Position numbers and translations under genes: made by a program. The notes under the pieces are model-generated. The model was not told the origin of the DNA, did not search any database, and saw only the letters and a program-made list of their open reading frames with translations. Source: a virus (lineage: Duplodnaviria; Heunggongvirae; Uroviricota; Caudoviricetes). From it: a stretch of 13,144 nucleotides of DNA. Location: the IMG/VR virus record IMGVR_UViG_2541047722_000003; one strand, 5' to 3'. Positions 1 through 13,144 of the stretch are shown here, one piece after another (position 1 is the stretch's first letter; each line of letters opens with the position of its first letter).

Positions 1-95
1 AAGCAGAAAAAGCTTATTATGCTTCCATCGGAAACGATGATCTGGCAGCCTGAGTTCACAGATAAAACACTCTCCAGGAAACCCGGGGCGGTTCA
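1..95 (+). mobile_element. Partial IS629-like element (IS3 family), right end only; the body lies upstream of the window
   Basis: Positions 1-95 are identical to 6654-6748, the last 95 bp of the complete IS629 copy in this window, ending in the terminal ...GGTTCA. Phage sequence starts at 96. Confidence 0.9.
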
Positions 96-281
96 CCCTT
101 CGTTTTCGCCATCTTCTTCCGCCTTAGCCACTTTTTGCTTCGTTGCGGTTTCTTCAGGAGTTTTTACCCAACCTTTTTTCAGGTGAGATTTAACTTCTTC
201 GTCATCAACAATGATGTAATCGACAGCAAACTGACCGCAGGTGATCATGTTGCCTGGCTTATAGAGCATTGTTCGTGCCAT
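96..281 (-). pseudogene. Small phage gene downstream of the coat gene, 3'-truncated by IS629
   Basis: ATG at 281-279 preceded by a GGGAGAAG Shine-Dalgarno. The frame stays open to the IS junction and the stop (TGA, 95-93) is supplied by the IS629 terminal bases. The 75-aa tracked ORF (93..320) includes an N-terminal extension that overlaps the terminator and is probably not translated. Confidence 0.5.
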
Positions 282-293
282 TGTCTTCTCCCA

Positions 294-316
294 ATAAAAA
301 TGGGGCCGAAGCCCCA
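294..316 (-). terminator. Rho-independent terminator after the coat gene
   Basis: Perfect 6-bp stem (301-306 / 311-316) with a UUCG tetraloop on the minus-strand transcript, followed by UUUUUAUU (complement of 294-300), directly after the coat stop codon. Confidence 0.6.
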
Positions 317-322
317 CCAAAA

Positions 323-1576
323 TTACTGCCCAGCAATAACGATGCCCGTATATTCAGGAACCAGTACAGAGCAACCGTACAGAGTGGTGAAACGCGCAGT
401 GGTTACGCCTTTGATGTGGTCGAAGGAGTAAGACATGATCAGCGTAGCGCCCTGCTCGGTGGTTGCTGTCATTACCTGTGGACCCTGACCAGTTGGGAAC
501 GCCAGTTTGCCGTACATCAGTTCAACAGAACCATCAGCCCAGAACAGGTTAGCAGGTGCTGCGTTCTTGTTGAGAATGGTGATTGCTGCTGATTCTGCCG
601 GTTTGGCATCGACGTTTGCATATGGACGACTCGCAACATCAGTATTTTCAACAGGGAGAATCTTTGGAGAAATTGTTACGGTAGTTCCGCTAACAGCCAG
701 AACACGGAATACCTGCGGTTGACCGGTGGTATCTTTTGTGATCTGGTGTACGGAATTCACACCGGCAATGGTGAACGCATCACCAACCTGCAAGCCAGAT
801 GCAGATACCGTAATAGTCCCCTGTCGGTTATCAACTGGCATACCATTTGAATCTTTCGCTTCAACCTTGTGTTCAGGTTGGCCTGATACTGTCAAGGATT
901 CAGTGCTTCCTTTCGGTAATCGACCAGAAATATCGGTCTTGTAGCTATCGAAGGACGCAACCGGAGGGATTTGCGCTTTTTCGTATGCTGTCAGGGTTGC
1001 GCCCTGAGCATAGGCACGGTGACCAAGCTCGCCAGCAAGGTCTTTGTAGTTGAAGGGGTTCCAGAAAGAGCGACGGTTGATACCCTGAGGTACACCAATC
1101 GCCGTCATGGTGGCATCAATACCTGCCGCACAGTTCCACAAATCACGGCCCTGTGTACCTGCGGTTGAGTCAGCCATCGTGATCACGTTAGTAGCACGCT
1201 GCGTGACCATGGAAATCAGGTCAGAGTCAATCTGTGCAGCAAGGCGCATACCTGCGGCGCGACCAGCTTCAGTTTTATGTTCCGGATCACGCATTTCACG
1301 CGCATCCAGAGTGTACAGAATGTTTTTCGGCTCCTTGAACACTGAAGGAACAAGGCGCTGAACCAGTGCTGTTGGCGTTTTGCTGCTGAGGTCGAGGCCT
1401 TCCTCAATATTCATGTGGTAATGCTGCGGACGATACAGAACATCACCTGCTCGCTGCATTGCTGTATCACCGGGACGGAATTTTTTAGCGTTACGGGAAA
1501 CTACGCAGGCGGCCTCAAAGCCTTCAACGTAGTTTTCGAACATGATTTCAAGGTCTTTTGCTAATTGGTTAGCCAT
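323..1576 (-). CDS. Major capsid (coat) protein, P22 gp5-like
   Basis: 417-aa ORF with a GGAG Shine-Dalgarno 8 nt upstream. Length and several blocks resemble P22-type coat proteins as I recall them (e.g. AKKFRPGDTAMQR, FWNPFNYKDLAG, RPYANVDAKPAESAAITILN...LFWADGSVEL). It sits in the conserved portal-scaffold-coat order. Confidence 0.8.
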   Translation of the reverse strand: MANQLAKDLEIMFENYVEGFEAACVVSRNAKKFRPGDTAMQRAGDVLYRPQHYHMNIEEGLDLSSKTPTALVQRLVPSVFKEPKNILYTLDAREMRDPEHKTEAGRAAGMRLAAQIDSDLISMVTQRATNVITMADSTAGTQGRDLWNCAAGIDATMTAIGVPQGINRRSFWNPFNYKDLAGELGHRAYAQGATLTAYEKAQIPPVASFDSYKTDISGRLPKGSTESLTVSGQPEHKVEAKDSNGMPVDNRQGTITVSASGLQVGDAFTIAGVNSVHQITKDTTGQPQVFRVLAVSGTTVTISPKILPVENTDVASRPYANVDAKPAESAAITILNKNAAPANLFWADGSVELMYGKLAFPTGQGPQVMTATTEQGATLIMSYSFDHIKGVTTARFTTLYGCSVLVPEYTGIVIAGQ

Positions 1577-1594
1577 GCTTAATGCTCCAATAGG

Positions 1595-2488
1595 TTATTT
1601 TTTTGCCTTTTTAGCGGCGAAATACGGCGTCCAGTCACCAGTTTCCAGCGCCTTGGCTTTCAATTTGTCGAGGTTGTTGATTACTGCGCCGTTGCTCCCC
1701 TTAACCGTCGGGGTTGTGGCTGCCGTGGTTTTTGCTTTTGGCATGATTCTGGCCTTCGATTCGATACGTTCCAGCAGACGACCAATTGCTACGGGGTTGG
1801 TAGCTTCTGCCAGTTGCTTGCGCAGTTCAGCGTTGCGACCAAGCGCCAGAACAACGATTTCCGGCTTCTCTGACTCAAACAGGATCGCGTTTTGTGTCTC
1901 GATGGGGATTTCCTCGAGTACGGCCTGCTCAGCTTCCTGATAGCCAGGAACTTTGAGAGCCTTAACACGTTGCTGATATTTGGATAATCGCTCTTGATAG
2001 GCAGCCTGAAGCTCCTGCTCCTTCTGCTTGCGAGCCATCTCCTGTTGCTGGTACTTGCCATTATCCTCTGCCCACTTAGCCATGCGTTGCTGGTAGATTT
2101 CTTCATCGAAACCGATGTCCTCATCATCCAGTTTTGGCATTCGCGGTGGTTGAGTGATTACCGGCTGCTGCTCGACGGGTTTCTGAGACTGACGCATCAG
2201 CTCTTTCAGCTCGCGGTCTTTCTCTTTAATCGTCTTGCGCAGGTGTTTTACCAGTCCATGCTCAGCGCCATCTTCGCTGGTTGGCGAATCCAGCTTTTCG
2301 TCACCAAAGTAGAATTCCTGTTCTGATTCGTCGTCATCAGTTTCAGTAGCCTCCTCTGCATCATTGCCTGAGGACTCACTGCCATCTTCTGTTTCGACTT
2401 TTTCAGCCAGTTCGACATCATCAGGAATCTGCTCTGACGCGTCGGTTTCGATTTCAACTTCTGGTGTGTTTTCTGCCATCTGGTCCAT
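1595..2488 (-). CDS. Scaffolding protein, P22 gp8-like
   Basis: 297-aa highly charged, E/K/Q-rich protein with an acidic N-terminus and a basic C-terminal tail (KLKAKALETGDWTPYFAAKKAKK). Position between portal and coat matches the P22 order. Confidence 0.65.
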   Translation of the reverse strand: MDQMAENTPEVEIETDASEQIPDDVELAEKVETEDGSESSGNDAEEATETDDDESEQEFYFGDEKLDSPTSEDGAEHGLVKHLRKTIKEKDRELKELMRQSQKPVEQQPVITQPPRMPKLDDEDIGFDEEIYQQRMAKWAEDNGKYQQQEMARKQKEQELQAAYQERLSKYQQRVKALKVPGYQEAEQAVLEEIPIETQNAILFESEKPEIVVLALGRNAELRKQLAEATNPVAIGRLLERIESKARIMPKAKTTAATTPTVKGSNGAVINNLDKLKAKALETGDWTPYFAAKKAKK

Positions 2489-2578
2489 TTGTTACCCCTG
2501 TTTACTCGATGTTCAGCCCATCGGAAGGCAATAGGGTGCCAGGCCTCATAAAGACAGCCATTGCACGTTATGGGTTAA

Positions 2579-4777
2579 TTACTGCTGTGGTTGTTGCTGA
2601 GTTGATTTTTGCAGGATGCTGCTGATGTCCATGCGCTGCGCATGGCCCTGTGCCTGACTTTTCAGGACAAGCTCTGCATCAGCACGGGCATTGTCTCCTT
2701 GCTGTTGCTGGAACTGTCCGAGCAGTTTCAGAGCCTCGCGGATATCAGATTTCTGCTGGCTATCGGCAGATGCGAGGATTTTCACAACATTTGCCGCTGC
2801 AACCTGAGCATCAGTCTGTGCCTGGAATGCTTTAACCTGAATGGCTGCCTGCTCGTTCTGCGCTTTCTGCAATTCAGCCTGACCAGCAAGAAGCTGACCT
2901 TGCGCAGCAACCATAGCCGGATCTGGCTGACTGGCCTGTTGTTGTTTCGCCTGCTCAACCATCTGCTGTTCTTCTGGCGTTCTCGGCTTGATAACTCCAG
3001 ACAGAAGCAACTGATTGCGGTTGTATTCTTTAAGGTCGTCCATCCCTTCGCCGTCCATATTGTCGAGGATCATCGACGATACAAGGTCGTGTTTCGGCGT
3101 TCCGGGCGGGATAAGTGCCAGCATGGAAAGTAACGACTTAACCGTTGCGTCACGGCGAGTAGCGAACGACTGACCGACATCGACAGTCACTTCATAGTTA
3201 CCCTGCGAAAGGTCGTTAAGCGCGATAACCTGCCCTGTCTGACGGTCAACCACTTCACCAGTCATCAGCGCCACGTCATCGCTGCCGTCCTCATTAACGA
3301 TACGCATCGGCGTATCGCTGCCATAGACTTCACGAGCCATAGAAAGCCACACAACGCCAGCGCGACGCATGGATTTAGCCATGTTGTCCATGTAGATATA
3401 GGACTGCGTATCCATCCGGTTAAAGATGCTATCAACGGTATCGGTAGCAACGTTGCTCGGCATGTTCTCAAGCTGCGACGCACCTGTAATTTGCTGAATA
3501 GCCGTTCCGGTGTACTGCAATAGCCCGGCAAGAGCTGGAGGCATTTGTGTCGGAGGCGTATAACTGCTGACCTGAGCCTGCGCAGTAATATCTCCGTTTT
3601 TGTTTTTCAGACTGACCATCGGCAGGAACGCCGGGCGCTTTTTGTTGCGCTCCGCCCAATGAGTGGCGAGAGGACCAGGAATCATGTCAACATCAACTAC
3701 AGGAATGCCATCACCGCCAGCCTGAGTAGCGTTATCTGCAATCATGGAAACCATCAGGTTCTCAAGACGCTGTGCATCCATCGCTTTTGCTGCGTGGCCT
3801 TCGATTCGTTCCTGATTATCAACAAATGAGCGACGTCCATATACCGGGATGAGAGGAATATGTTCGCCCGGAATACGCTTCGGTTCTTCCAGCCATTCAG
3901 CGCCAGACAGAAGGCCGCAATAAACGCGGCGTTTCTTCACCGTTCGCTCGCCAATCAGTTCGAATGCACCATCGGTCAGCTCGTCGACAATATCTTTGAT
4001 TTGCTCTTCATCATAGATTGCCGTTTCTCCGCTAACAGGGTTGCGCCATGCCGTGAGCTTCACCTTCTCTATGCGAACTTCGTAGTAGCGCCCAACATAG
4101 ATGGCATCTGGCGTTGACCAGTCATATTGAGTGCCAGTCTCATCACGAGAAAGGCCTGCCGCGATGGAATCAGGGTATTCAGCCTCGAACGCTTTAGGCG
4201 TCATGGAGAACATTTCCATAGCCCACATAGCATCAGAACGGTCATATTGCTTGCTGTCCTGATCGAAGAAGACGCATGTCGCTGGGTCGTAAACAGGAAG
4301 AAGGCTGATGCGTCGCTGCTCGTTACTTGGGTCCATTTCATCTTCGTAATCGGCACACATGCGGAAACAACCGAATCCGCCCGTTACAGCATCATCAAAT
4401 GCGTTATCACACGCTTCGCCACCTGATGTTTCCTGATAGTCAGCGCGGAATTTGCCGTTCATCTTTTTGGCTAACGCTTCCGATGCCTTGTCATCCTTCG
4501 GCCTGAATTTAACGCTGATGCGATTCTGTCGATACTCGCCAATGATGCGATCACATTCACGGGCAATCTTATTCAGTTCAAAGCGCGGGTAATGCTCAAA
4601 CCTGCCTTCATCAAATGAGTAACCAGCGTTTGTGCTGCCTTCCCACTGTGCGCCGGATACCCGGACGAAACGTTGAGCCTCAATAATCTGCTCACGCATA
4701 TCCTGCGTTGCTGACCAGGCATTATCAAAGTTGCACAGCACCTTGCGATGCCAGTCAGTCATCTTTTTTTCTGCCAT
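2579..4777 (-). CDS. Portal protein, P22 gp1-like
   Basis: 732-aa ORF. C-terminal region PRTPEEQQMVEQAKQQQASQPDPAMVAAQGQLLAGQAELQKAQN closely resembles the P22 portal barrel region as recalled. Size and position immediately downstream of large terminase fit. Confidence 0.85.
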   Translation of the reverse strand: MAEKKMTDWHRKVLCNFDNAWSATQDMREQIIEAQRFVRVSGAQWEGSTNAGYSFDEGRFEHYPRFELNKIARECDRIIGEYRQNRISVKFRPKDDKASEALAKKMNGKFRADYQETSGGEACDNAFDDAVTGGFGCFRMCADYEDEMDPSNEQRRISLLPVYDPATCVFFDQDSKQYDRSDAMWAMEMFSMTPKAFEAEYPDSIAAGLSRDETGTQYDWSTPDAIYVGRYYEVRIEKVKLTAWRNPVSGETAIYDEEQIKDIVDELTDGAFELIGERTVKKRRVYCGLLSGAEWLEEPKRIPGEHIPLIPVYGRRSFVDNQERIEGHAAKAMDAQRLENLMVSMIADNATQAGGDGIPVVDVDMIPGPLATHWAERNKKRPAFLPMVSLKNKNGDITAQAQVSSYTPPTQMPPALAGLLQYTGTAIQQITGASQLENMPSNVATDTVDSIFNRMDTQSYIYMDNMAKSMRRAGVVWLSMAREVYGSDTPMRIVNEDGSDDVALMTGEVVDRQTGQVIALNDLSQGNYEVTVDVGQSFATRRDATVKSLLSMLALIPPGTPKHDLVSSMILDNMDGEGMDDLKEYNRNQLLLSGVIKPRTPEEQQMVEQAKQQQASQPDPAMVAAQGQLLAGQAELQKAQNEQAAIQVKAFQAQTDAQVAAANVVKILASADSQQKSDIREALKLLGQFQQQQGDNARADAELVLKSQAQGHAQRMDISSILQKSTQQQPQQ

Positions 4778-4778
4778 A

Positions 4779-5438
4779 TCAACCTACACCACAAGGAATT
4801 GAGTAACTGGAATAGTCGGGTTGCGCAGCCGACTCCGGGCAATGCATACACATCATCAGCGCATCAGCCAGGTTAGGAGATGGGATACCGAGCTTCTGCT
4901 TCATTTCGACCTTAGTCATAAGCTCCAGTTTCCCGTTATTATTGAATTTGCGCTGAATCTGCGTCAGTTCTGCAAACAGTTTCTCCAGCATCTTCTCGCC
5001 TATCGCTTCTTTGTCGAAGCTCAGCATGTCGTCGGGGTCTGCATACTCACCGTGGACAACCGCCCGATATGTCAGATACAGCCTGTCAGCCAGCGCGTAA
5101 TAGAATTGCGCTCGCTTATTGCGGAATACATCGCCAATAGTGCGAACGTTGTCACCCTGTACGACTTCATCAGCCCATGCTCCGGCCTGATACGGAGCAT
5201 CTTCATCGAATGGCGATTCGCTGCCCTTGAACATCGTGGCGGTAATTTTCTTGCCGGAGAATGCTTCCGTTGTCTGTCTGCGTAGCCCTGCACCGACACC
5301 ATCGCCATCCCACAGGTAATGGTCAGCGCCGTCTTCAATCGCCAGCGAAGTAGCCCAGTCAGCACCCTCGTTGATGTCCATCAGCAGACCTTCGGCAATG
5401 CGCTTAACTACCGAACCGTGACGCGATGCATAACCTTT
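4779..5438 (-). pseudogene. Large terminase subunit, C-terminal fragment, separated from its N-terminal part by IS629
   Basis: Phage-derived reading frame of 219 codons from 5438 to the TGA at 4779-4781. The first 31 residues of the tracked ORF (5439-5531) are read-through into the IS629 left end. The frame is continuous with the 6749..7508 fragment once the IS and one target duplication (1314 bp) are removed. Confidence 0.8.
5435..5438. repeat. IS629 target-site duplication, left copy (CTTT)
   Basis: CTTT immediately precedes the IS (TG at 5439-5440) and CTTT at 6749-6752 immediately follows its last base (CA at 6747-6748). Confidence 0.7.
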
Positions 5439-5492
5439 TGAACCGCCCCGGGAATCCTGGAGACTAAACTTCCTGAGAAAGAGGTAAACAGG

Positions 5493-5819
5493 ATGACTAA
5501 AAATACTCGTTTTTCCCCCGAAGTCCGTCAACGGGCAGTCCGTATGGTTCTGGAAAGTCAGAGCGAATATGACTCACAATGGGCGACAATTTGTTCCATT
5601 GCTCCAAAGATTGGCTGTACGCCGGAGACTCTGCGTGTCTGGGTTCGCCAGCATGAGCGGGATACCGGGGGCGGTGATGGAGGGCTCACCACCGCTGAAC
5701 GTCAGCGTCTGAAAGAGCTGGAACGTGAAAATCGTGAACTGCGCCGCAGTAACGATATCCTTCGCCAGGCTTCCGCTTATTTTGCGAAGGCGGAGTTCGA
5801 CCGCCTCTGGAAAAAATGA
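5493..5819 (+). CDS. IS629 OrfA (transposase N-terminal helix-turn-helix component)
   Basis: 108-aa ORF with a GAGG Shine-Dalgarno. The sequence [22 protein letters not shown]...[33 protein letters not shown] has the leucine-zipper-like end typical of IS3-family OrfA. Confidence 0.9.
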
Positions 5820-6706
5820 TGCCACTGCTGGATAAGCTGCGTGAGCAGTACGGGGTCGGACCGCTATGCAGCGAACTGCATATTGCCCCGTCAACGTATT
5901 ACCACTGTCAGCAACAGCGACATCATCCGGATAAACGCAGTGCCCGTGCGCAGCGCGATGACTGGCTGAAGAAAGAGATACAGCGCGTATACGATGAAAA
6001 TCACAAGGTATACGGTGTGCGTAAAGTCTGGCGTCAGTTGTTACGGGAAGGTATCAGAGTGGCCAGATGCACTGTGGCACGTCTCATGGCGGTTATGGGA
6101 CTTGCCGGTGTTCTCCGGGGTAAAAAGGTCCGTACGACCATCAGCCGGAAAGCCGTTGCCGCAGGCGACCGCGTAAACCGTCAGTTCGTGGCAGAACGAC
6201 CTGACCAGCTGTGGGTGGCTGATTTTACTTACGTCAGCACATGGCGGGGCTTCGTCTATGTGGCGTTCATCATTGATGTGTTTGCCGGATACATCGTGGG
6301 GTGGCGGGTCTCATCGTCCATGGAAACGACATTCGTGCTGGATGCACTGGAGCAGGCGTTATGGGCCCGTCGACCGTCCGGCACGGTCCATCACAGTGAT
6401 AAAGGTTCTCAGTATGTATCGCTGGCCTACACACAGCGGCTTAAGGAAGCCGGATTACTGGCATCAACAGGAAGTACAGGCGACTCGTATGACAACGCGA
6501 TGGCGGAGAGCATCAATGGTCTTTACAAAGCGGAGGTAATACACCGTAAGAGCTGGAAAAACCGTGCAGAAGTGGAACTGGCCACACTCACGTGGGTGGA
6601 CTGGTATAACAATCGACGATTGCTGGAAAGGCTGGGCCATACTCCTCCGGCAGAAGCAGAAAAAGCTTATTATGCTTCCATCGGAAACGATGATCTGGCA
6701 GCCTGA
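5816..6706 (+). CDS. IS629 OrfB (transposase catalytic DDE domain), expressed as an OrfAB fusion by -1 frameshift
   Basis: 296-aa ORF in the -1 frame relative to orfA, overlapping the orfA stop at the A-rich stretch tggAAAAAAtga (5808-5819). Contains DDE-type integrase motifs ([23 protein letters not shown]). Confidence 0.9.
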
Positions 6707-6748
6707 GTTCACAGATAAAACACTCTCCAGGAAACCCGGGGCGGTTCA

Positions 6749-6752
6749 CTTT
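6749..6752. repeat. IS629 target-site duplication, right copy (CTTT)
   Basis: Identical to 5435-5438 and directly abuts the IS629 right terminus. Confidence 0.7.
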
Positions 6753-7508
6753 AGCATCTGGCCCTGTATCTGATGGGTCATGCGCAGAGACAACAGCGCC
6801 TTTCGCTTTCCATCCGAGTTTCTTGTGCGCATCGGTTGCGGCTTCAAGCCATTCACGTTTGATGATTGCCATATCACTTGCGCTTACTGGCTCACCAAGC
6901 CAGATGTGACGATACAGTGTCGGGTTTCTGCGTTTACACTCTTCCATCTCCAGACGGAGAACTTCAGGAAAGTGCGGGTTGTCGGTGTAGTTCACCGTCA
7001 GCAGACAAATATCATCGGGAGGGTTTACTACGAATCGCTGATAGGTATCGTCGAGGATGTTTTTCGGGTTGAAGCTCACCCATATTTCGGAAAATGGCTT
7101 GCGGATGGTTGGTATCAGGATATCCCATGATTCCTTCGTTACCGCTTCCGCTTCCTCCACCCAGCAGATATCAATGCCTTCGAGCGATTTAATCTTCGTC
7201 GGGTTGTTTTTGATGCCGTAGAACATGAACTCAGCATTCGTCCCGAGATGACGAATCATGGAACGCTGAATTTCAAACTCAGCCGTATACCCTTCACGCT
7301 CTATGGTGTCTTCAAGCAGCCGGATTACCGAATCGCTGATACTGTTTTGCAGTTCACGAGCGCAGAGAATACGCACTGGCTGCCGACGCGCCGCTTCAAC
7401 AAGCAGTCTCGCAATTGCCCATGATTTACCGCTACCTCGACCGCCTTTGGCGACTTTGTAGCGATGCGCCTCAATGAACGGTTCAAAGATAGGATTAATC
7501 GAGGTCAT
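6749..7508 (-). pseudogene. Large terminase subunit, N-terminal ATPase fragment, interrupted by IS629
   Basis: ATG at 7508 overlaps the terS stop. Walker A-like motif KGGRGSGKS near the N-terminus. About 253 phage-derived codons, then the frame runs into the IS629 right end (the last 53 residues of the tracked 306-aa ORF are IS-encoded). Confidence 0.85.
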
Positions 7509-7945
7509 TTTCCGAATAGAGTACTCATCGGTGATGTTTCAATCTGGATTGCGCCGCCGTCTTTGCCTGTTAGCTCGTGATCAACCTTGTCGCGCCATTT
7601 ATCCTTCTGTCGGTTCTTAAGCCAGAAGATGGCAGCTGTTGTATCAGGCGGGTAATACTTCTCAAGAGGAGTTTCGACAATTCTGTTTTCAATAACACGA
7701 ATATCGATGTCTGGAGCCACGAAGCCCATAGCGCGTTGATAAAGACGGTCACTAACTTCTGCATCAGCGACGGCCTTACCCTTTTTTATGGACTCCGAAA
7801 ACTCAGGATAATCAAGCTTCCACTTGTTAATAGTTGACTCACTGACTTCGAAGAAATCAGCAAGCTCTGCATCGGTGTAGCCCAGCAAGCACAGTTTGCG
7901 TGCCTGTTCGGCATACGCCTCTTGATACTTTGTTGGGCGCGCCAT
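7505..7945 (-). CDS. Small terminase subunit
   Basis: 146-aa ORF immediately upstream of and overlapping large terminase by 4 bp. The N-terminal segment (MARPTKYQEAYAEQARKLCLLGYTDAELADFFEVSESTINKWK) resembles the helix-turn-helix region of phage small terminase families as recalled. Confidence 0.75.
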   Translation of the reverse strand: MARPTKYQEAYAEQARKLCLLGYTDAELADFFEVSESTINKWKLDYPEFSESIKKGKAVADAEVSDRLYQRAMGFVAPDIDIRVIENRIVETPLEKYYPPDTTAAIFWLKNRQKDKWRDKVDHELTGKDGGAIQIETSPMSTLFGK

Positions 7946-7947
7946 GT

Positions 7948-8190
7948 TTATGCTCCGGTGGTGAACAGGTCTAACGCTTCCTTCGATTTACGCACCGCTT
8001 CGATAGTGCGGGTCGTGATATCTGAATTAGCGCCGCCTGACTGGAAGTGAATTTTGAATAGCTCAAGCTTCAGTTCGTCAGTGCCAATGAACTGAAATGC
8101 TTCCTCTGCGGCTGCGTTCTGGTTCATGACCAGCTTGTAAATCTCTAACTGGAATTTCTGTTCTTCAGTCATGGGAATAATCTCTGCCAT
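7948..8190 (-). CDS. Hypothetical phage protein (80 aa) upstream of terS
   Basis: ORF with a GGAG Shine-Dalgarno 8 nt upstream of the ATG at 8190-8188, tightly packed against terS. No recognisable motif. Confidence 0.5.
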   Translation of the reverse strand: MAEIIPMTEEQKFQLEIYKLVMNQNAAAEEAFQFIGTDELKLELFKIHFQSGGANSDITTRTIEAVRKSKEALDLFTTGA

Positions 8191-8225
8191 TGTTGGCTCC
8201 GTTTATCCGTTAAAAGGGATATCAG

Positions 8226-8229
8226 TTAA
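8226..8229. repeat. IS5 target-site duplication, left copy (TTAA)
   Basis: TTAA at 8226-8229 and at 9425-9428 directly flank the 16-bp IS5 terminal inverted repeats. Fits the known YTAR target preference. Confidence 0.75.
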
Positions 8230-9424
<1,195 letters not shown>

Positions 9425-9428
9425 TTAA
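9425..9428. repeat. IS5 target-site duplication, right copy (TTAA)
   Basis: See left copy. Confidence 0.75.
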
Positions 9429-9445
9429 CTGTGAATAATCCATTG

Positions 9446-9622
9446 TCATTTCCTCGCACGATGTCTTAGCAACCGGATATCCCACAGGTGAGCCGTGTAG
9501 TTGAAGGTTTTTACGTCAGATTCTTTTGGGATTGGCTTGCGTTTATTTCTGGTGCGTTTCGTTGGAAGGTATTTGCAGTTTTCGCAGATGATGTCGGTGA
9601 TACTTCGTCGCTGTCGCCTCAT
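9446..9622 (-). CDS. Small basic protein (58 aa), possibly NinE-like
   Basis: ATG at 9622-9620 overlaps the ninB stop (ATGA coupling) and is preceded by an AGGAGG Shine-Dalgarno. Very basic, with a single CxxC (CENC). Tentative NinE-like assignment rests only on size, position after ninB and vague sequence recollection. Confidence 0.55.
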
Positions 9623-10029
9623 TCGTACCTCCTGTCGGTAAATCTGACACCCTGACCAATAGCCCATGCTGTTGTGTACTCGATCAGACTTGCCATACGC
9701 TTCACACTCATCTGCGCGCTGCTTTCGCGAATGTTGACGTATTCGCCTTCAAGCCCGGGCAAAACATCAGCTTCCTGTTTTGTTGCCACTGCATGACCGC
9801 TGATCAACAAAACCTTCCATTGTTCTGGTTTTAACCATTTATCGCGCCACTGAACTTGCCTAGCGATATCTGCGACCATCGCGTGAAATTTTGCGTTCTG
9901 GTCAAGGTTGCGCTTGTAGTCAGTAATGCGGATGGTGACTGGCTTGTCTTTATCGAGTGGTGTTGCGAGGATGGCATTTATTGCAGCTTGCTGTTGTTGC
10001 TTAGTTCGGAGGAATATTGTTTGCTTCAC
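9619..10029 (-). CDS. ninB: NinB-like recombination protein (lambda Orf family)
   Basis: 136-aa ORF with a GTG start at 10029 preceded by an AAGGAG Shine-Dalgarno. The block [26 protein letters not shown] parallels the SLDQNRKLWACLGDVSRQVEWHGRWL block of lambda NinB as recalled. Position downstream of the replication genes fits. Confidence 0.7.
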
Positions 10030-10040
10030 TGAATACTCCT

Positions 10041-10226
10041 TTATTTTTTATGCCTGTAACCCCATTCTTCCAGCAACCTTGCGGCGTACCACCCAAGAAA
10101 CAAAGGAAAGAACATTACAATGAGATATTTCCCGCCACGGTCAATGTTCGAAATTGACCAGATTACGATGTAACCAGTGCAGGACAGGAATATTACAAAC
10201 CCCAAAAAGCTACTTCGTCGACTCAT
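10041..10226 (-). CDS. Small membrane protein (about 61 aa, two predicted transmembrane segments), function unknown
   Basis: ATG at 10226-10224 with an AAGGAG Shine-Dalgarno 5 nt upstream; the tracked GTG at 10232 is too close to that Shine-Dalgarno. Two hydrophobic stretches (FLGFVIFLSCTGYIVIWSI and YLIVMFFPLFLGWYAARLL) and a charged C-terminus (EEWGYRHKK). Confidence 0.55.
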   Translation of the reverse strand: MSRRSSFLGFVIFLSCTGYIVIWSISNIDRGGKYLIVMFFPLFLGWYAARLLEEWGYRHKK

Positions 10227-10228
10227 GC

Positions 10229-10543
10229 TCACTCCTTCACTTTGATTCCAGCGGCGCGGATAGCCTCTACATCGCTTTCGTATTGCGATTCTGCACCTGA
10301 GTCATAGCCAATGTGATAATCACCGGGAAGTGGGCCTTTCTTTGGCTTTTGCAGCTCAATTTCAATAGCTGCTCTCGATGCCTGCCACGTTTGCCAGTGG
10401 CCTTGAACATCGTCCATCACGTATTGACCACCAATATCACCACTGCCAATTTCATGGTGATTTTCAGGGTAACGGATAAGGTCTGAAGATTCGCCCCCCA
10501 CGTCGTAACCAACTCTCTTCAAACTGGCATCTGCTTTCGTCAT
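10229..10543 (-). CDS. Hypothetical acidic protein (104 aa) with an internal GYD-x-G-(A/G)ES repeat; may be the downstream part of a frameshifted gene
   Basis: ORF with a weak ribosome-binding site whose first 80 nt overlap the preceding Cys-rich ORF in another frame. Contains repeated VGYDVGGESSD / IGYDSGAESQYESD motifs and a net acidic charge. Confidence 0.4.
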   Translation of the reverse strand: MTKADASLKRVGYDVGGESSDLIRYPENHHEIGSGDIGGQYVMDDVQGHWQTWQASRAAIEIELQKPKKGPLPGDYHIGYDSGAESQYESDVEAIRAAGIKVKE

Positions 10544-10646
10544 CTTTCATAAGGCAGTCACATTCAATAAAAATCGGCTCTCCCCAAGGAGTAGAACCTC
10601 CGCTATCACACATTCCTGTGTTATTGCACTTTTGGCACTTGCTCAC
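10464..10646 (-). CDS. Small Cys-rich protein (60 aa), putative zinc-binding, function unknown
   Basis: GTG start at 10646 with a GGAGG Shine-Dalgarno 5 nt upstream. Six cysteines including CQKC and CDC pairs. The 3' end overlaps the 104-aa ORF across a C6/G6 homopolymer (10494-10499). Confidence 0.5.
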   Translation of the reverse strand: MSKCQKCNNTGMCDSGGSTPWGEPIFIECDCLMKDDESRCQFEESWLRRGGRIFRPYPLP

Positions 10647-10658
10647 ATTAACCTCCGA

Positions 10659-10865
10659 TTAACTCACAAAACGCCACGCCACTTTTGCTACGACAACAGG
10701 CATAACACCGATAATCACCCACAGAAAAATGCTACCGAAAAGCACACCAACCAGGTCTTTACCTTCGCCTACCAACCGGACAAAACTGCTGGCAACCACA
10801 ATGAACGTCGCCACCATCCACATAGCACCGAGAATCCTCAATGCAGAAAAAATCAACTCAACCAC
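10659..10865 (-). CDS. Small membrane protein (68 aa, two predicted transmembrane segments), function unknown
   Basis: GTG start at 10865 preceded by a GGGGGAGGG Shine-Dalgarno. Almost entirely hydrophobic (LIFSALRILGAMWMVATFIVVASSF ... VLFGSIFLWVIIGVMPVVVA). First gene after the tR2-like terminator. Confidence 0.5.
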   Translation of the reverse strand: MVELIFSALRILGAMWMVATFIVVASSFVRLVGEGKDLVGVLFGSIFLWVIIGVMPVVVAKVAWRFVS

Positions 10866-10880
10866 GATTTACCCTCCCCC

Positions 10881-10911
10881 AAATAAAAAGGCCTGCGATT
10901 ACCAGCAGGCC
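10881..10911 (-). terminator. Rho-independent terminator downstream of the helicase gene (lambda tR2 equivalent)
   Basis: 7-bp perfect stem GGCCTGC (10890-10896) / GCAGGCC (10905-10911) with an 8-nt loop, followed on the minus-strand transcript by UUUUUAUUU (complement of 10881-10889). Confidence 0.65.
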
Positions 10912-10937
10912 TGTTACAAGCTCAGTGATGTAGATGG

Positions 10938-12314
10938 TCATACGTCAGCCCCTTGTGCATATCGTCTGCCACGCGCAGCAGGTGCATTTGATGCTGTGCA
11001 AATCTGTCTGGCTTCATCCTGGTCACATGCAACAAAGTGTCCGTTGCAGAACCGCTGGTAAACCGTACCAAGTGAGCCAAAACGGTTTTTCGTCACGATG
11101 ATTTCAGCAAATGGCGCGGCGCTACTGTTCTCGTCATATACCGCTTCCCGATAGAGCATGATGATTGAGTCTGCGTCCTGTTCAATGCTTCCTGAATCAC
11201 GCAAATCTGCGTTTGTCGGGCGTTTGTTTGGTCGCTTCTCAACATCGCGTGAAAGCTGACTCAGGGAAATAACCGGTGTTTTCAGGTCTTTCGCCATCGC
11301 CTTCAGGCTTCCGGAGATGTGAGCAATTGCGAGGTCGTTGCGGTCTGCTTTCGGCTTCTCAATCAGGCCAAGATAATCCGCCATGATGAGTGAGAGGTTT
11401 GGATTTTCCTGTTTGTGCCGTTCTGCGATTGAGCGTATTTCTTCGACCGATAATCGCGAGGCATCGACTACCCATACATCCAAATCTGCAAGCTGACTCA
11501 TGCCGTTAGCAACACGTGCCCAGCCCTCGTCATCCATCGATGCAGGATTTCGCAGTACGCTAACCGACATCCTCCCGGCGTTGGCAATGCTTCGCTCTGC
11601 AATCTGCAATGCGCTCATTTCCATTGAGAAAATCAATACCCCGCGCCGGACGTCAGAACCAGGAATAACGCGGCTTGCAACGCCTTCGGCAATCTTCAGC
11701 GCCAGTTCGGTTTTCCCCATACCAGGACGAGCAGCGATTATCACCAGGTCTTCCGCGTTCATCCCTCCGGTGATGGCATCAAGTTCTTCGATTCCGGTCT
11801 TCAGGGTATCGGACTCTTCTCCGTTCCTCAGACGCCTGTCAAGCGTGTCAGTGTAGTCGGTGATGATTTCCCCTAACCGTACAGGTTTAACCTCGTCACG
11901 GGGCTTTCTGATGGCTGAGAGACGTTTTACAAGTTCATCCATCGCCTGACTCGATGCGTCGATGGTTCCGCTTTGGATTGGTTCACGCATTTCATCCATG
12001 ATTTCCAGCACCAGACGGCGGTGATAGTTATCCGCGACCATTCCGGCATATCCCTTCAGGTTTGCGGCGCTCGGGCAGTTTTTGCTGGTCATCAGGATTG
12101 ACGTGAAATGCTCCTCTCCGCACGCCTCGGCAACCATCAGCGCGTCGATTAGGTTTCTGTTTCTCGCCTGCTTCCGGATAACCTCGAAGGCTTTCCGGTA
12201 GAGCGGAATTGAAAACGCTTCCGGCTCCAGCGTTGCAAGAACGTCACTGGCGGTTGGAGTTAATCCACCAATCAGCAGGCCACCGATAACGCTCGCTTCG
12301 ATATCCTGTCTCAT
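10938..12314 (-). CDS. Replicative DNA helicase, DnaB-like (P22 gene 12 type)
   Basis: 458-aa ORF. Walker A ARPGMGKT, then LIFSMEMS, and an [12 protein letters not shown]...[21 protein letters not shown] block typical of DnaB-family helicases. ATG overlaps the stop of the upstream replication gene (ATGA). Confidence 0.88.
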
Positions 12315-13042
12315 GCAATCCCCCTGTCTGCAAACTTCCCTTCCCGAACTCCCGTTAACGAGTCTTCTCTCAGCAGGTAATCAAAATCAGCCGTCCAGCC
12401 CGTGTCGTTGTCTCCGAAGTAAAACGGCTTGGCCTGATGCACAAACGCCCTGACATACGCTCTGAAACCGTCCACGTTTGGCGTTTTCAGTTGCGGGATG
12501 ATTTTCTTCAGGCGGCGTTTTCGTTTCTCGTTGACCGCAACAGCGTGTGGCAGTCTGTCACCGACTTCGGTGTTGTAGGCGTTCAGGAAGGATTCGTAGT
12601 CGATTCGTTCTGCCTTGCGACGTTCAGGTTTAACCTGCCCATCGCCTCCCCCATTGGGGGGTAGGGGGGTATTATTTATATTCTTGTTAATACCTTCTTG
12701 TTCATGATGTGCGGTTGTTTGTGCGGCTTCATGTGCGCTTTCATGTGCGGCATGTACGCTGAAAGCCGCGCTATTGCTGGCTTCATCATGTGCGGCATCA
12801 TGTGCGGTTGTTTGTGCGGCTTCATGTGCGGGTAAATTGTCCATTTTTTGAGCATATTCATGGTAATTTGTGATGGTTATCACACGGCCTTTTTGCTTCT
12901 CTCCATCAATGGAGATCATCCCCTCTTTCACAAAAACCTGAAGCATCCGCTCAACCTGATCACGGCTTGCTGGCTTGCCATGTCTGTCGCATAACTGAAG
13001 ACCTAAATCAGCTGCTGTCACAACCAGTTGACCGGGTTGCAG
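12311..13042 (-). pseudogene. Replication initiator (lambda O / P22 gene 18-like), 5'-truncated by IS629
   Basis: The frame is open from the IS629 junction (13042) down to the TGA at 12311-12313 with no stop; the tracked GTG at 13021 is probably not the native start. Contains an embedded iteron array and an adjacent AT-rich tract, as in the lambdoid ori-within-O arrangement. Translationally coupled to the helicase. Confidence 0.6.
12703..12831. repeat. Putative origin-of-replication iteron array inside the initiator gene
   Basis: Nine copies of a 12-bp unit with core (C/T)ATGTGCGG in two blocks (12703-12759 and 12784-12831), including a 35-bp higher-order repeat (12705-12739 vs 12797-12831, 2 mismatches). 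Followed in the direction of transcription by an AT-rich tract (12671-12700) and a G/C-rich run (12655-12669). Confidence 0.6.
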
Positions 13043-13144
13043 TGAACCGCCCCGGGTTTCCTGGAGAGTGTTTTATCTGTGAACTCAGGCTGCCAGATCA
13101 TCGTTTCCGATGGAAGCATAATAAGCTTTTTCTGCTTCTGCCGG
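13043..13144 (-). mobile_element. Partial IS629-like element, right end in inverted orientation; the body lies downstream of the window
   Basis: The reverse complement of 13043-13144 is identical to 6647-6748 of the complete IS629 copy. Begins with the terminal TGAACC and abuts the truncated replication gene. Confidence 0.9.

What the first reader, a model, noticed from the sequence alone, without database searches (positions are those of the whole stretch)
10464..10546. Two overlapping ORFs joined across a C6/G6 homopolymer: possible frameshifted single gene
The 60-aa Cys-rich ORF and the 104-aa acidic ORF overlap by 80 nt in different frames. The downstream ORF has no convincing Shine-Dalgarno and its frame closes only two codons upstream of its ATG. 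Both frames cross a run of six C (10494-10499). A 1-bp length change there would fuse them into a single protein of roughly 137 aa with an N-terminal Cys-rich domain and an acidic repeat-containing C-terminus. This could be a slippage-generated pseudogene, a phase-variable switch or a sequencing error; a genuine overlap is also possible.
Basis: seen in the sequence. Interest (0 to 1): 0.45.

Follow-up and report, generated by a model that had tools for sequence, protein, structure and literature searches.

The report
Frameshifted small prophage gene (phiTE_015 family)
The two overlapping reading frames are the two halves of one small prophage gene of unknown function, split by one extra G in a run of Gs; this is an ordinary inherited frameshift mutation that public annotation already flags.

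Summary
On the minus strand, a 60-aa Cys-rich ORF (10646..10464) and a 104-aa ORF (10543..10229) overlap by 80 nt in different frames. Both cross a G6 run (C6 on the + strand, 10494-10499).

Phage phiv205-1 and 12 complete E. coli genome records carry the same segment with G5. There it is one 138-aa ORF, and that exact protein is on 142 public contigs. All sampled homologues (Pfam PF26207 Phage_phiTE_015, phrog_343, HK022 gp59) read ...SWLRRGG|ESSDL... straight across the site, with GGAGG or GGCGGT in place of the run. The family profile maps in order onto the two window ORFs.

So G6 is a derived +1 insertion. It truncates the protein at residue 51 plus 9 out-of-frame residues. The 104-aa ORF starts at a fortuitous out-of-frame ATG with no Shine-Dalgarno.

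G6 occurs in 34 complete genome records, at least 30 of which share one near-identical P22-like prophage. This includes Sanger-era genomes. That argues against sequencing error, phase variation and a genuine overlap.

NCBI's PGAP annotation pipeline already marks the locus "phiTE_015 family protein, frameshifted". The gene's function is unknown. Low interest.

The parts
10229..10646 (-). Whole frameshifted gene. It is a Phage_phiTE_015 (PF26207 / phrog_343) family gene with an N-terminal Cys4 module. The intact G5 allele encodes 138 aa.
   Evidence: phiv205-1 annotates one 417-nt CDS on the otherwise identical sequence. The exact 138-aa protein P0001 is on 142 contigs. phrog_343 matches the fused protein at residues 27-138 in one stretch, E=3e-31. 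PGAP marks the G6 allele 'frameshifted'.
10494..10499 (-). G6 run (C6 on the + strand). This is the frameshift site, with one G more than the in-frame allele.
   Evidence: Alignment A1 shows that the only difference from phiv205-1 and APEC E19035 in 221 nt is one G in this run. HK022, NCTC11121 and NRZ96052a have GGAGG, and a distant homologue has GGCGGT; all are in frame.
10551..10646 (-). N-terminal Cys-rich module (residues 1-32). C4, C7, C29 and C31 are conserved (CxxC...CxC), so it is a probable zinc-binding knuckle.
   Evidence: Comparison with the distant homologue P0026/L014 gives 12 identical, 12 synonymous and 8 non-synonymous codons, with the four Cys kept. The same module forms or lies near the N-terminus of unrelated phage proteins: Seurat gp78, PAK_P3 gp127, Peggy gp160.
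10652..10656 (-). Shine-Dalgarno GGAGG, 5 nt upstream of the GTG start at 10646.
   Evidence: Read directly from the sequence. The alternative ATG at 10550, which PGAP uses, has no such site.
10464..10466 (-). Premature TGA stop reached in the shifted frame. It follows 51 native residues and 9 out-of-frame residues (RIFRPYPLP).
   Evidence: In alignment A3 the 60-aa ORF diverges from the family directly after ...WLRRGG.
10541..10543 (-). Fortuitous out-of-frame ATG that opens the 104-aa ORF. Its first 17 residues (MTKADASLKRVGYDVGG) are not native.
   Evidence: In homologues the same nucleotides are read in the other frame as DESRxQFEESWLRRGG. Differences from HK022 upstream of the run (GAG/GAA, TTA/TTG, GGG/GGA) are silent in that frame; in the 104-aa ORF's frame GAG/GAA and TTA/TTG change R to K and Y to C.
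10229..10493 (-). Native C-terminal 87 codons plus stop (ESSDLIRYPENHHE...AIRAAGIKVKE). In this allele they are out of frame with the start codon.
   Evidence: The 104-aa ORF, residues 27-104, matches phrog_343 positions 53-125, continuing from the 60-aa ORF's match to positions 26-55.

Best explanation
This is one gene, not two. It lies in the early nin region of a P22-like (Lederbergvirus-type) E. coli prophage, between the replicative helicase gene and ninB.

The intact gene encodes a 138-aa protein. It has an N-terminal four-cysteine module (probably zinc-binding) and a Phage_phiTE_015 core of unknown function.

In the ancestor of this prophage lineage, the codons CGT GGG GGC GAA (R-G-G-E) formed a G5 run. 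One extra G was added, most plausibly by replication slippage (inferred).

What the sequence shows directly:
- Translation from the GTG at 10646 now leaves the native frame after Gly51 and stops 9 codons later.
- The remaining 87 native codons can be read only from an accidental out-of-frame ATG at 10543. That ATG has no ribosome-binding site.

What I infer:
- The C-terminal part is probably made poorly or not at all.
- The locus is therefore a pseudogene, or at best a truncated Cys-module peptide.

The mutation arose once and has been inherited with the prophage. The gene is dispensable for prophage maintenance.
For: 1. G5 alleles identical apart from the run give one ORF. These are phiv205-1 CDS QGF19944.1 (417 nt) and APEC E19035. 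The exact 138-aa protein is on 142 contigs.

2. All homologues aligned read ...SWLRRGGE(S/E/A/T)SDL... across the site. This holds for HK022 gp59, NCTC11121, NRZ96052a and 50 or so database proteins. S38, R39, F42, E43 before the site and W84, W87, S90, R91 after it are invariant in the same polypeptide.

3. phrog_343 maps positions 26-55 to the 60-aa ORF and 53-125 to the 104-aa ORF. It maps positions 28-125 to the fused protein in one stretch, E=3e-31.

4. Substitutions against HK022 upstream of the run are synonymous in the 60-aa ORF's frame; two of the three are non-synonymous in the 104-aa ORF's frame.

5. GGAGG lies 5 nt before the GTG at 10646. There is none before the ATG at 10543.

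6. Distribution: 34 complete genome records have G6 and 12 have G5. 30 of the 34 G6 records share the window-type prophage at 99.2% identity or more, all but one of them at 99.8% or more. The G5 contexts I compared carry the segment in other mosaics: five complete-genome loci and phage phiv205-1 by sequence, three further genomes by annotation. These mosaics have a different helicase and different nin genes. In the IMT5155 type the shared block is 1518 nt with only 1 SNP and the 1 gap.

7. PGAP independently labels the identical locus 'phiTE_015 family protein / hypothetical protein, frameshifted'.

8. A sibling prophage in MS20654 lacks the whole cassette, which shows it is dispensable.
Against: - No expression or proteomic data are available. 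Weak translation of the 104-aa ORF cannot be excluded, nor can occasional +1 slippage on GGG-GGG-C that would recreate the native protein.
- The direction of change (G5 to G6) is inferred from outgroups and parsimony, not observed.
- Only about 100 of the 349 matching E. coli records were listed individually. A rare G5 within the G6 prophage lineage, or a second independent G6, could have been missed.
Confidence: 0.9

Rival explanations
1. Phase-variable (contingency) switch. On this reading the G tract changes length reversibly at high frequency and turns the 138-aa protein ON (G5) and OFF (G6).
For: Both tract lengths exist in nature on an otherwise near-identical 1.5-kb block, with 1 SNP and 1 gap. 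Homopolymers are the classic substrate for such switches (established knowledge).
Against: - The tract is only 5-6 nt. Known homopolymer contingency loci typically have 7-8 nt or more (established knowledge).
- 30 or more genomes carrying the same prophage all have G6, and no examined G5 copy lies in that prophage. Tract length therefore tracks prophage lineage rather than varying within it.
- Most homologues have no run at all, with GGAGG or GGCGGT instead.
- The gene lies in a region expected to be repressed in lysogens, where a host-level switch would have nothing to act on (inferred from lambdoid gene order).
Confidence: 0.03
2. Recoding. On this reading the G6 allele is still decoded into the full-length protein, either by +1 ribosomal slippage of tRNA-Gly on GGG-GGG-C or by transcriptional slippage. 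It would then be a low-dose allele rather than a null.
For: A +1 shift of peptidyl-tRNA-Gly from the first GGG to the overlapping GGG re-pairs perfectly, and would then read GGC GAA TCT, which gives exactly the native ...RRGGESS... (read from the sequence). GGG is a fairly rare codon in E. coli (established knowledge).
Against: - The site is not conserved. Every other family member encodes the junction in frame without a slippery run.
- No Shine-Dalgarno-like stimulator lies directly upstream of the run.
- G6 is confined to one clonal prophage lineage.
- The annotation pipeline treats it as a frameshift, not as programmed.
Confidence: 0.04
3. Two genuine overlapping genes. On this reading the 60-aa Cys-rich protein and the 104-aa protein are both functional and independently translated.
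For: Gene callers in many records call the 104-aa ORF; its exact product is on 454 contigs. Both ORFs are open in 34 complete genome records.
Against: - No homologue outside this one lineage has the arrangement.
- The first 17 residues of the 104-aa ORF and the last 9 of the 60-aa ORF have no counterpart in the family.
- The ATG at 10543 has no Shine-Dalgarno.
- The family profile runs continuously across both ORFs.
Confidence: 0.02
4. Sequencing or assembly error in a homopolymer.
For: Homopolymer length errors are common in some sequencing technologies (established knowledge).
Against: 30 complete genome records are 100% identical over the 501 nt, and 4 more differ by one SNP; all 34 have G6. 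From my knowledge of these assemblies, they span Sanger (APEC O1, S88), PacBio (NCTC11151) and hybrid methods. The G6-derived product is on more than 550 contigs.
Confidence: 0.01

Closest known systems
Phage_phiTE_015 family (Pfam PF26207; PHROG 343; NCBI 'phiTE_015 family protein'), for example HK022 gp59 (AUM59827.1), Sf6 gene 48 and phiv205-1 QGF19944.1
   Same: The core sequence SRxQFEESWLRRGGExSDLxRYPENHHE...VQGHWQTWQASRAAIEIE...AIRAAGxKVKE is the same. So is the genomic position, between the replicative helicase gene and ninB in lambdoid and P22-like phages.
   Different: The window copy is split by a +1 G insertion. It also carries a 32-aa Cys4 N-terminal module that HK022 gp59 and most family members lack. 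The family has no known function.
Ordinary homopolymer-slippage frameshift pseudogenes in prophages
   Same: A single-base length change in a short mononucleotide run, a premature stop, clonal inheritance, and a location in a decaying prophage. This window also has IS insertions in the terminase and replication genes and a 5.5-kb deletion of the Q and lysis region.
   Different: Nothing substantive. The frameshift predates the IS damage, because apparently complete sibling prophages such as NCTC11151 already carry it.
Homopolymer contingency loci (phase variation), for example poly-G tracts in Neisseria, Haemophilus and Campylobacter
   Same: A G tract inside a coding region, with both in-frame and out-of-frame lengths found in nature.
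   Different: The tract is far shorter (5-6 nt). No within-lineage variation was seen. The tract is absent from most homologues.
Programmed +1 frameshifting (prfB/RF2 type)
   Same: The out-of-frame continuation could in principle be reached by a +1 slip on a run that allows tRNA re-pairing.
   Different: There is no conservation of the shifty site, no in-frame stop at the site, and no upstream Shine-Dalgarno-like stimulator. Homologues are encoded in a single frame.

Membership tests
Phage_phiTE_015 (PF26207) / phrog_343 | Significant sequence match to the family profile over the core | tested here: met
   For phrog_343, the repaired 138-aa protein scores E=3e-31, the 104-aa ORF 6e-23 and the 60-aa ORF 3e-3. 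All homologues carry a precomputed PF26207 hit, and that family is named Phage_phiTE_015. The local Pfam and NCBIfam copies returned no hit to this family, so the Pfam assignment rests on the precomputed hits of homologues and on PGAP's label.
Phage_phiTE_015 (PF26207) / phrog_343 | Core encoded as one uninterrupted reading frame | tested here: not met
   In the window the core is split between two frames at the G6 run. The locus is therefore a disrupted member, that is, a pseudogene.
Frameshift pseudogene | An intact allele or orthologue exists that differs by an indel not divisible by 3, and homology continues in the other frame | tested here: met
Frameshift pseudogene | Loss of the protein product | not testable with these tools
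   This needs proteomics or ribosome profiling. The only sequence-level argument is that no Shine-Dalgarno precedes the ATG at 10543.
Phase-variable contingency locus | Long, hypermutable simple-sequence tract (typically 7-8 nt or more for homopolymers) | tested here: not met
   The tract is G6 here and G5 in intact alleles.
Phase-variable contingency locus | Tract length varies among closely related isolates of one lineage | tested here: not met
   30 genomes with the same prophage (99.2% identity or more) all have G6. The nine G5 contexts examined or compared (eight genomes plus phage phiv205-1) are in other mosaic prophages. Within-culture variation could not be tested.
Programmed ribosomal frameshift | Slippery site and two-frame organisation conserved across homologues | tested here: not met
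   Homologues have GGAGG or GGCGGT and a single frame.
Programmed ribosomal frameshift | Stimulatory element (an upstream Shine-Dalgarno-like sequence or a downstream structure) | tested here: inconclusive
   No Shine-Dalgarno-like sequence was seen by eye directly upstream of the run. Downstream RNA structure was not analysed.

The most novel reading that the evidence does not exclude
The G6 allele may not be a null. One route is occasional +1 re-pairing of tRNA-Gly on GGG-GGG-C, which would restore exactly the native sequence. The other is non-covalent cooperation between the 60-aa Cys-module peptide and a weakly initiated 104-aa fragment. On either route, the widespread ST95-type prophage lineage (my attribution of the strain names, not tested here) would keep a reduced-dose or split version of the phiTE_015 protein, and the frameshift would be tolerated or even selected.
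Probability: 0.05. Interest if true: 0.35.

Novelty: already known. Interest (0 to 1): 0.1.

Why it matters
It matters mainly for annotation.

- The 104-aa 'hypothetical protein' is deposited hundreds of times, for example as APEC O1 ABJ01766.1 and S88 CAR03809.1. It is an artefact of a frameshift, and its first 17 residues are not native.
- The RefSeq model for the intact allele, WP_024189664.1 (106 aa, ATG at window 10550), probably lacks 32 N-terminal residues. These form a conserved Cys4 module that follows a good ribosome-binding site.
- The G6 insertion is a convenient clonal marker for one P22-like prophage lineage. I take the carrier strains to be K1/ST95-type E. coli from their names, but did not test this.

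Biologically it is a routine example of decay in a non-essential nin-region gene of unknown function.

Tried and rejected
- **Function from profile libraries.** The local NCBIfam and Pfam scans of the repaired protein and both ORFs gave nothing useful; the only hit was a sub-threshold Phage_tail_2 match at E=0.15. PADLOC gave no hit.
- **Function from solved structures.** Searching PDB sequences with the single protein and with a 53-sequence profile returned only chance PsaA matches at E near 1, or nothing.
- **Structure prediction.** AlphaFold2 with a 53-sequence alignment gave mean pLDDT 56 and pTM 0.39, mostly helices (37-51, 71-93, 118-131). I judged this too unreliable for fold search, so no fold search was run.
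- **Literature.** A search for phiTE_015, PF26207 and HK022 gp59 found no papers.
- **A suspected second G6.** NRZ96052a (hit H44) matched with equal query and subject lengths. Alignment showed GGAGG in frame, so the equal length was an artefact of the BLAST boundaries.
- **Whether the Cys-rich part is a separate gene.** Rejected: no stop separates it from the core in two divergent phages, its codon substitution pattern is that of coding sequence, and it forms or lies near the N-terminus of unrelated proteins elsewhere.
- **Promoter scan of 10000-11000.** No sigma-70-like site was found that could drive the 104-aa ORF separately.

Full report
**Observation**

The genes in this part of the window lie on the minus strand. 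The ORF listing gives a 60-aa ORF at 10464..10646 with a GTG start (MSKCQKCNNTGMCDSGG...WLRRGGRIFRPYPLP). It also gives a 104-aa ORF at 10229..10543 with an ATG start. They overlap by 80 nt, and the second frame is +1 relative to the first.

Both cross a run of six G on the coding strand, which is C6 at 10494-10499 on the + strand. The 104-aa frame is closed by TGA two codons before its ATG. The 17 nt before that ATG hold no Shine-Dalgarno-like sequence. The GTG at 10646 is preceded by GGAGG at a 5-nt spacing.

A G6 run is not unusual in itself: the window has 3 against 3.8 +/- 2.4 in shuffles. Removing one G fuses the frames into a 138-aa ORF; adding one would not.

**Comparison with near-identical sequences**

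A 501-nt query (10200-10700) finds phage phiv205-1 (MN340231) at 99.8% identity, with the match one base shorter. It also finds 46 complete E. coli genome records with the full segment: 34 of the same length and 12 one base shorter.

Alignment shows that the sole difference in 221 nt is one G in the run. The window and isolate AF6 have G6; phiv205-1 and APEC E19035 have G5.

- In phiv205-1 the G5 sequence is annotated as one 417-nt CDS, QGF19944.1.
- In G5 genomes PGAP annotates a 106-aa protein, WP_024189664.1, from the in-frame ATG at window 10550.
- In genomes identical to the window, PGAP annotates a pseudogene: 'phiTE_015 family protein, frameshifted' or 'hypothetical protein, frameshifted'.

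**Comparison with more distant homologues**

HK022 gp59, E. coli NCTC11121 and NRZ96052a share the sequence from window 10526 downstream. They read ATG GAC GAA TCA AGA AAG CAG TTT GAA GAA AGT TGG TTG CGA CGT GGA GGC GAA TC. TCA GAC CTT. That is MDESRKQFEESWLRRGGESSDL, in one frame, with GGAGG where the window has GGGGGG.

The differences from the window upstream of the run (GAG/GAA, TTA/TTG, GGG/GGA) are silent in the 60-aa ORF's frame. In the 104-aa ORF's frame GAG/GAA and TTA/TTG would change R to K and Y to C.

A protein search with the repaired 138-aa sequence returned 160 relatives, all with a precomputed PF26207 hit. The exact 138-aa protein is on 142 contigs. PF26207 is named Phage_phiTE_015.

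In alignments of 19 and 53 of these proteins:
- the junction motif WLRRGGE(S/E/A/T)SDL is continuous in every full-length member;
- residues on both sides of the site are invariant (S38, R39, F42, E43 and W84, W87, S90, R91);
- the window's two ORFs each align only up to, or only from, the run.

PHROG 343 matches the repaired protein in one stretch: residues 27-138 to profile 28-125, E=3e-31. It matches the two window ORFs over consecutive profile segments, 26-55 and 53-125.

The ancestral gene therefore spans the site with five bases, and the window carries a +1 insertion.

**The N-terminal Cys-rich part**

Family members differ at the N-terminus:
- none (HK022 type);
- the Cys module (window type);
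- an unrelated MRWAIKHKS... module;
- both modules (P0026, 161 aa).

Against P0026's gene (locus L014), the 32 codons of the Cys module are 12 identical, 12 synonymously different and 8 non-synonymous. C4, C7, C29 and C31 are conserved, and no stop precedes the core. The junction there is CGC GGC GGT GAG, with no run.

tblastn finds the same module in otherwise unrelated phage proteins: Seurat gp78 (179 aa; 63% identity over residues 3-37 and nothing beyond), PAK_P3 gp127 (403 aa) and Cronobacter phage Peggy gp160. In the first two it sits at the N-terminus; in Peggy gp160 it starts about residue 46.

Together with the GGAGG before the GTG at 10646, this supports the 138-aa form with a shuffled Cys4 N-terminal domain. 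The CxxC...CxC pattern suggests zinc binding, which is an inference. The 106-aa RefSeq model is therefore probably too short.

**Error, switch or fixed mutation?**

G6 is present in 34 complete genome records, including APEC O1, S88, ATCC 11775 and NCTC11151. The exact 104-aa product is on 454 contigs, with SNP variants on 86, 19, 18 and fewer. Sequencing error is excluded for practical purposes.

A whole-window search shows that 30 of the 34 G6 records carry the same P22-like prophage at 99.2% identity or more, all but one of them at 99.8% or more. None of the 12 G5 records appears among the 60 best matches.

The eight G5 genome records I examined, and phage phiv205-1, hold the segment in other mosaics. 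These have a different helicase, a different O gene and different nin genes. With the IMT5155 type the shared block is only 9424-10941, with one SNP and the one gap.

Tract length therefore follows prophage lineage and does not vary within it. A 5-6-nt tract is also short for a contingency locus (established knowledge). This fits one slippage event followed by inheritance. Only about 100 of the 349 matching records were listed individually, so rare exceptions cannot be ruled out.

**Context**

The window is 100% identical to the NCTC11151 prophage in three blocks: 93-5438, 6749-8230 and 9424-13042. It differs as follows:
- an IS3-family element, which I identify from memory as IS629-like (1310 bp, 25-nt inverted repeats), at 5439-6748 inside the large terminase gene;
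- an IS5-family-type element (DDE_Tnp_1 plus DUF772 transposase) at about 8231-9423, which replaces 5.5 kb carrying ninX through Q, the lysis genes and rha;
- further IS629-like ends at both window edges.

The prophage here is defective. The frameshift is older than this damage, because the apparently complete NCTC11151 prophage already has it. A sibling prophage in MS20654 lacks the whole cassette between the helicase gene and ninB. The gene is therefore dispensable, as expected for nin-region genes (the viable lambda nin5 deletion; established knowledge).

**Function**

Function is unknown.
- The local Pfam and NCBIfam copies, PADLOC, PDB sequences (single protein and profile) and the paper library gave nothing.
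- The AlphaFold2 model was too poor for fold search: pLDDT 56, mostly helical.

**Mechanism, with status**

Shown:
- There is one extra G relative to intact alleles.
- The native frame is lost after Gly51, and a stop follows 9 codons later.
- The 104-aa ORF begins at a non-native ATG.

Inferred:
- The insertion arose by replication slippage on a G5 run. That run was itself created by the synonymous GGA to GGG state of the first Gly codon.
- The C-terminal 87 residues are not made, or hardly made.
- The mutation arose once.

Not excluded: low-level +1 re-pairing of tRNA-Gly on GGG-GGG-C would regenerate the native sequence, and the two fragments could still act together. I give this about 5%.

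**Verdict**

It is an ordinary pseudogene in a decaying prophage and of low interest.

Noticed in passing
window 5439-6748: A 1310-bp IS3-family element, which I identify from memory as IS629-like. It has 25-nt terminal inverted repeats (TGAACCGCCCCGGGAATCCTGGAGA) and two ORFs, 108 aa (HTH_Tnp_1) and 296 aa (rve). It is inserted in the large terminase gene and splits it into 6588..7508 and 4779..5531.
   Followed up: partly
window ~8231-9423: An IS5-family-type element with a 338-aa DDE_Tnp_1 plus DUF772 transposase and 24-nt inverted repeats. It sits where the NCTC11151 prophage has 5.5 kb carrying ninX, ninF, KilAC, DUF1364, rusA, ninH, Q, holin, endolysin, a lysis protein and rha. This looks like an IS-associated deletion that makes the prophage defective.
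   Followed up: partly
window 1-92 and 13043-13144: Both window ends are termini of further IS629-like copies. The one at 13043 interrupts the replication (O-like) protein gene. With the internal copy, that makes three copies of this IS in or next to 13 kb of prophage.
   Followed up: no
window 10551-10646 (-); loci L016, L017, L018: The 32-aa Cys4 module (CxxCNxTGMxDSGG...ECDC) recurs in otherwise unrelated proteins of distant phages: Seurat gp78, Pseudomonas PAK_P3 gp127 and Cronobacter phage Peggy gp160. It appears to be a small, mobile, probably zinc-binding domain with no Pfam model in the local copy.
   Followed up: partly
window 10550 (-) versus 10646 (-): RefSeq models the intact allele from the ATG at 10550 (WP_024189664.1, 106 aa). 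A GGAGG-preceded GTG at 10646, the codon-level conservation of the upstream 32 codons, and the phiv205-1 annotation all favour a 138-aa protein. The RefSeq start is probably wrong.
   Followed up: yes
homologues P0026, P0044-P0063 (alignment A3); locus L014 3001-3486: Members of the phiTE_015 family carry interchangeable in-frame N-terminal modules: none, the Cys4 module, a MRWAIKHKSGR...IVEEV module, or both in tandem. It is unclear whether these are real domain fusions or upstream small genes that have lost their stop codon.
   Followed up: no
window 10041-10232 (-): A 61-63-aa hydrophobic ORF (MSRRSSFLGFVIFLSCTGYIVIW...). AAGGAG lies 5 nt before its ATG at 10226, inside the end of the phiTE_015 gene. 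phiv205-1 annotates it in part, but PGAP does not. It has no family hit. If its translation is coupled to the upstream gene, the frameshift could affect it.
   Followed up: no
window 10889-10912 (-): A terminator-like hairpin (AGGCCTGC...GCAGGCCT followed by a T-run). It lies directly after the helicase gene and before the 68-aa gene, at the position of lambda tR2 (compare the Sf6 annotation).
   Followed up: no
window 12656-12661 and 12664-12669: Two further G6 runs on the + strand, 2 nt apart, within the replication-protein gene on the minus strand. I did not check them for length variation.
   Followed up: no
locus L019 (E. coli MS20654) 19597-19872: A sibling prophage with the same helicase and late genes lacks the whole cassette of the 68-aa gene, the phiTE_015 gene and the 63-aa ORF, and has a different ninB allele. 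This marks a mosaic boundary at the helicase stop, around window 10941.
   Followed up: partly
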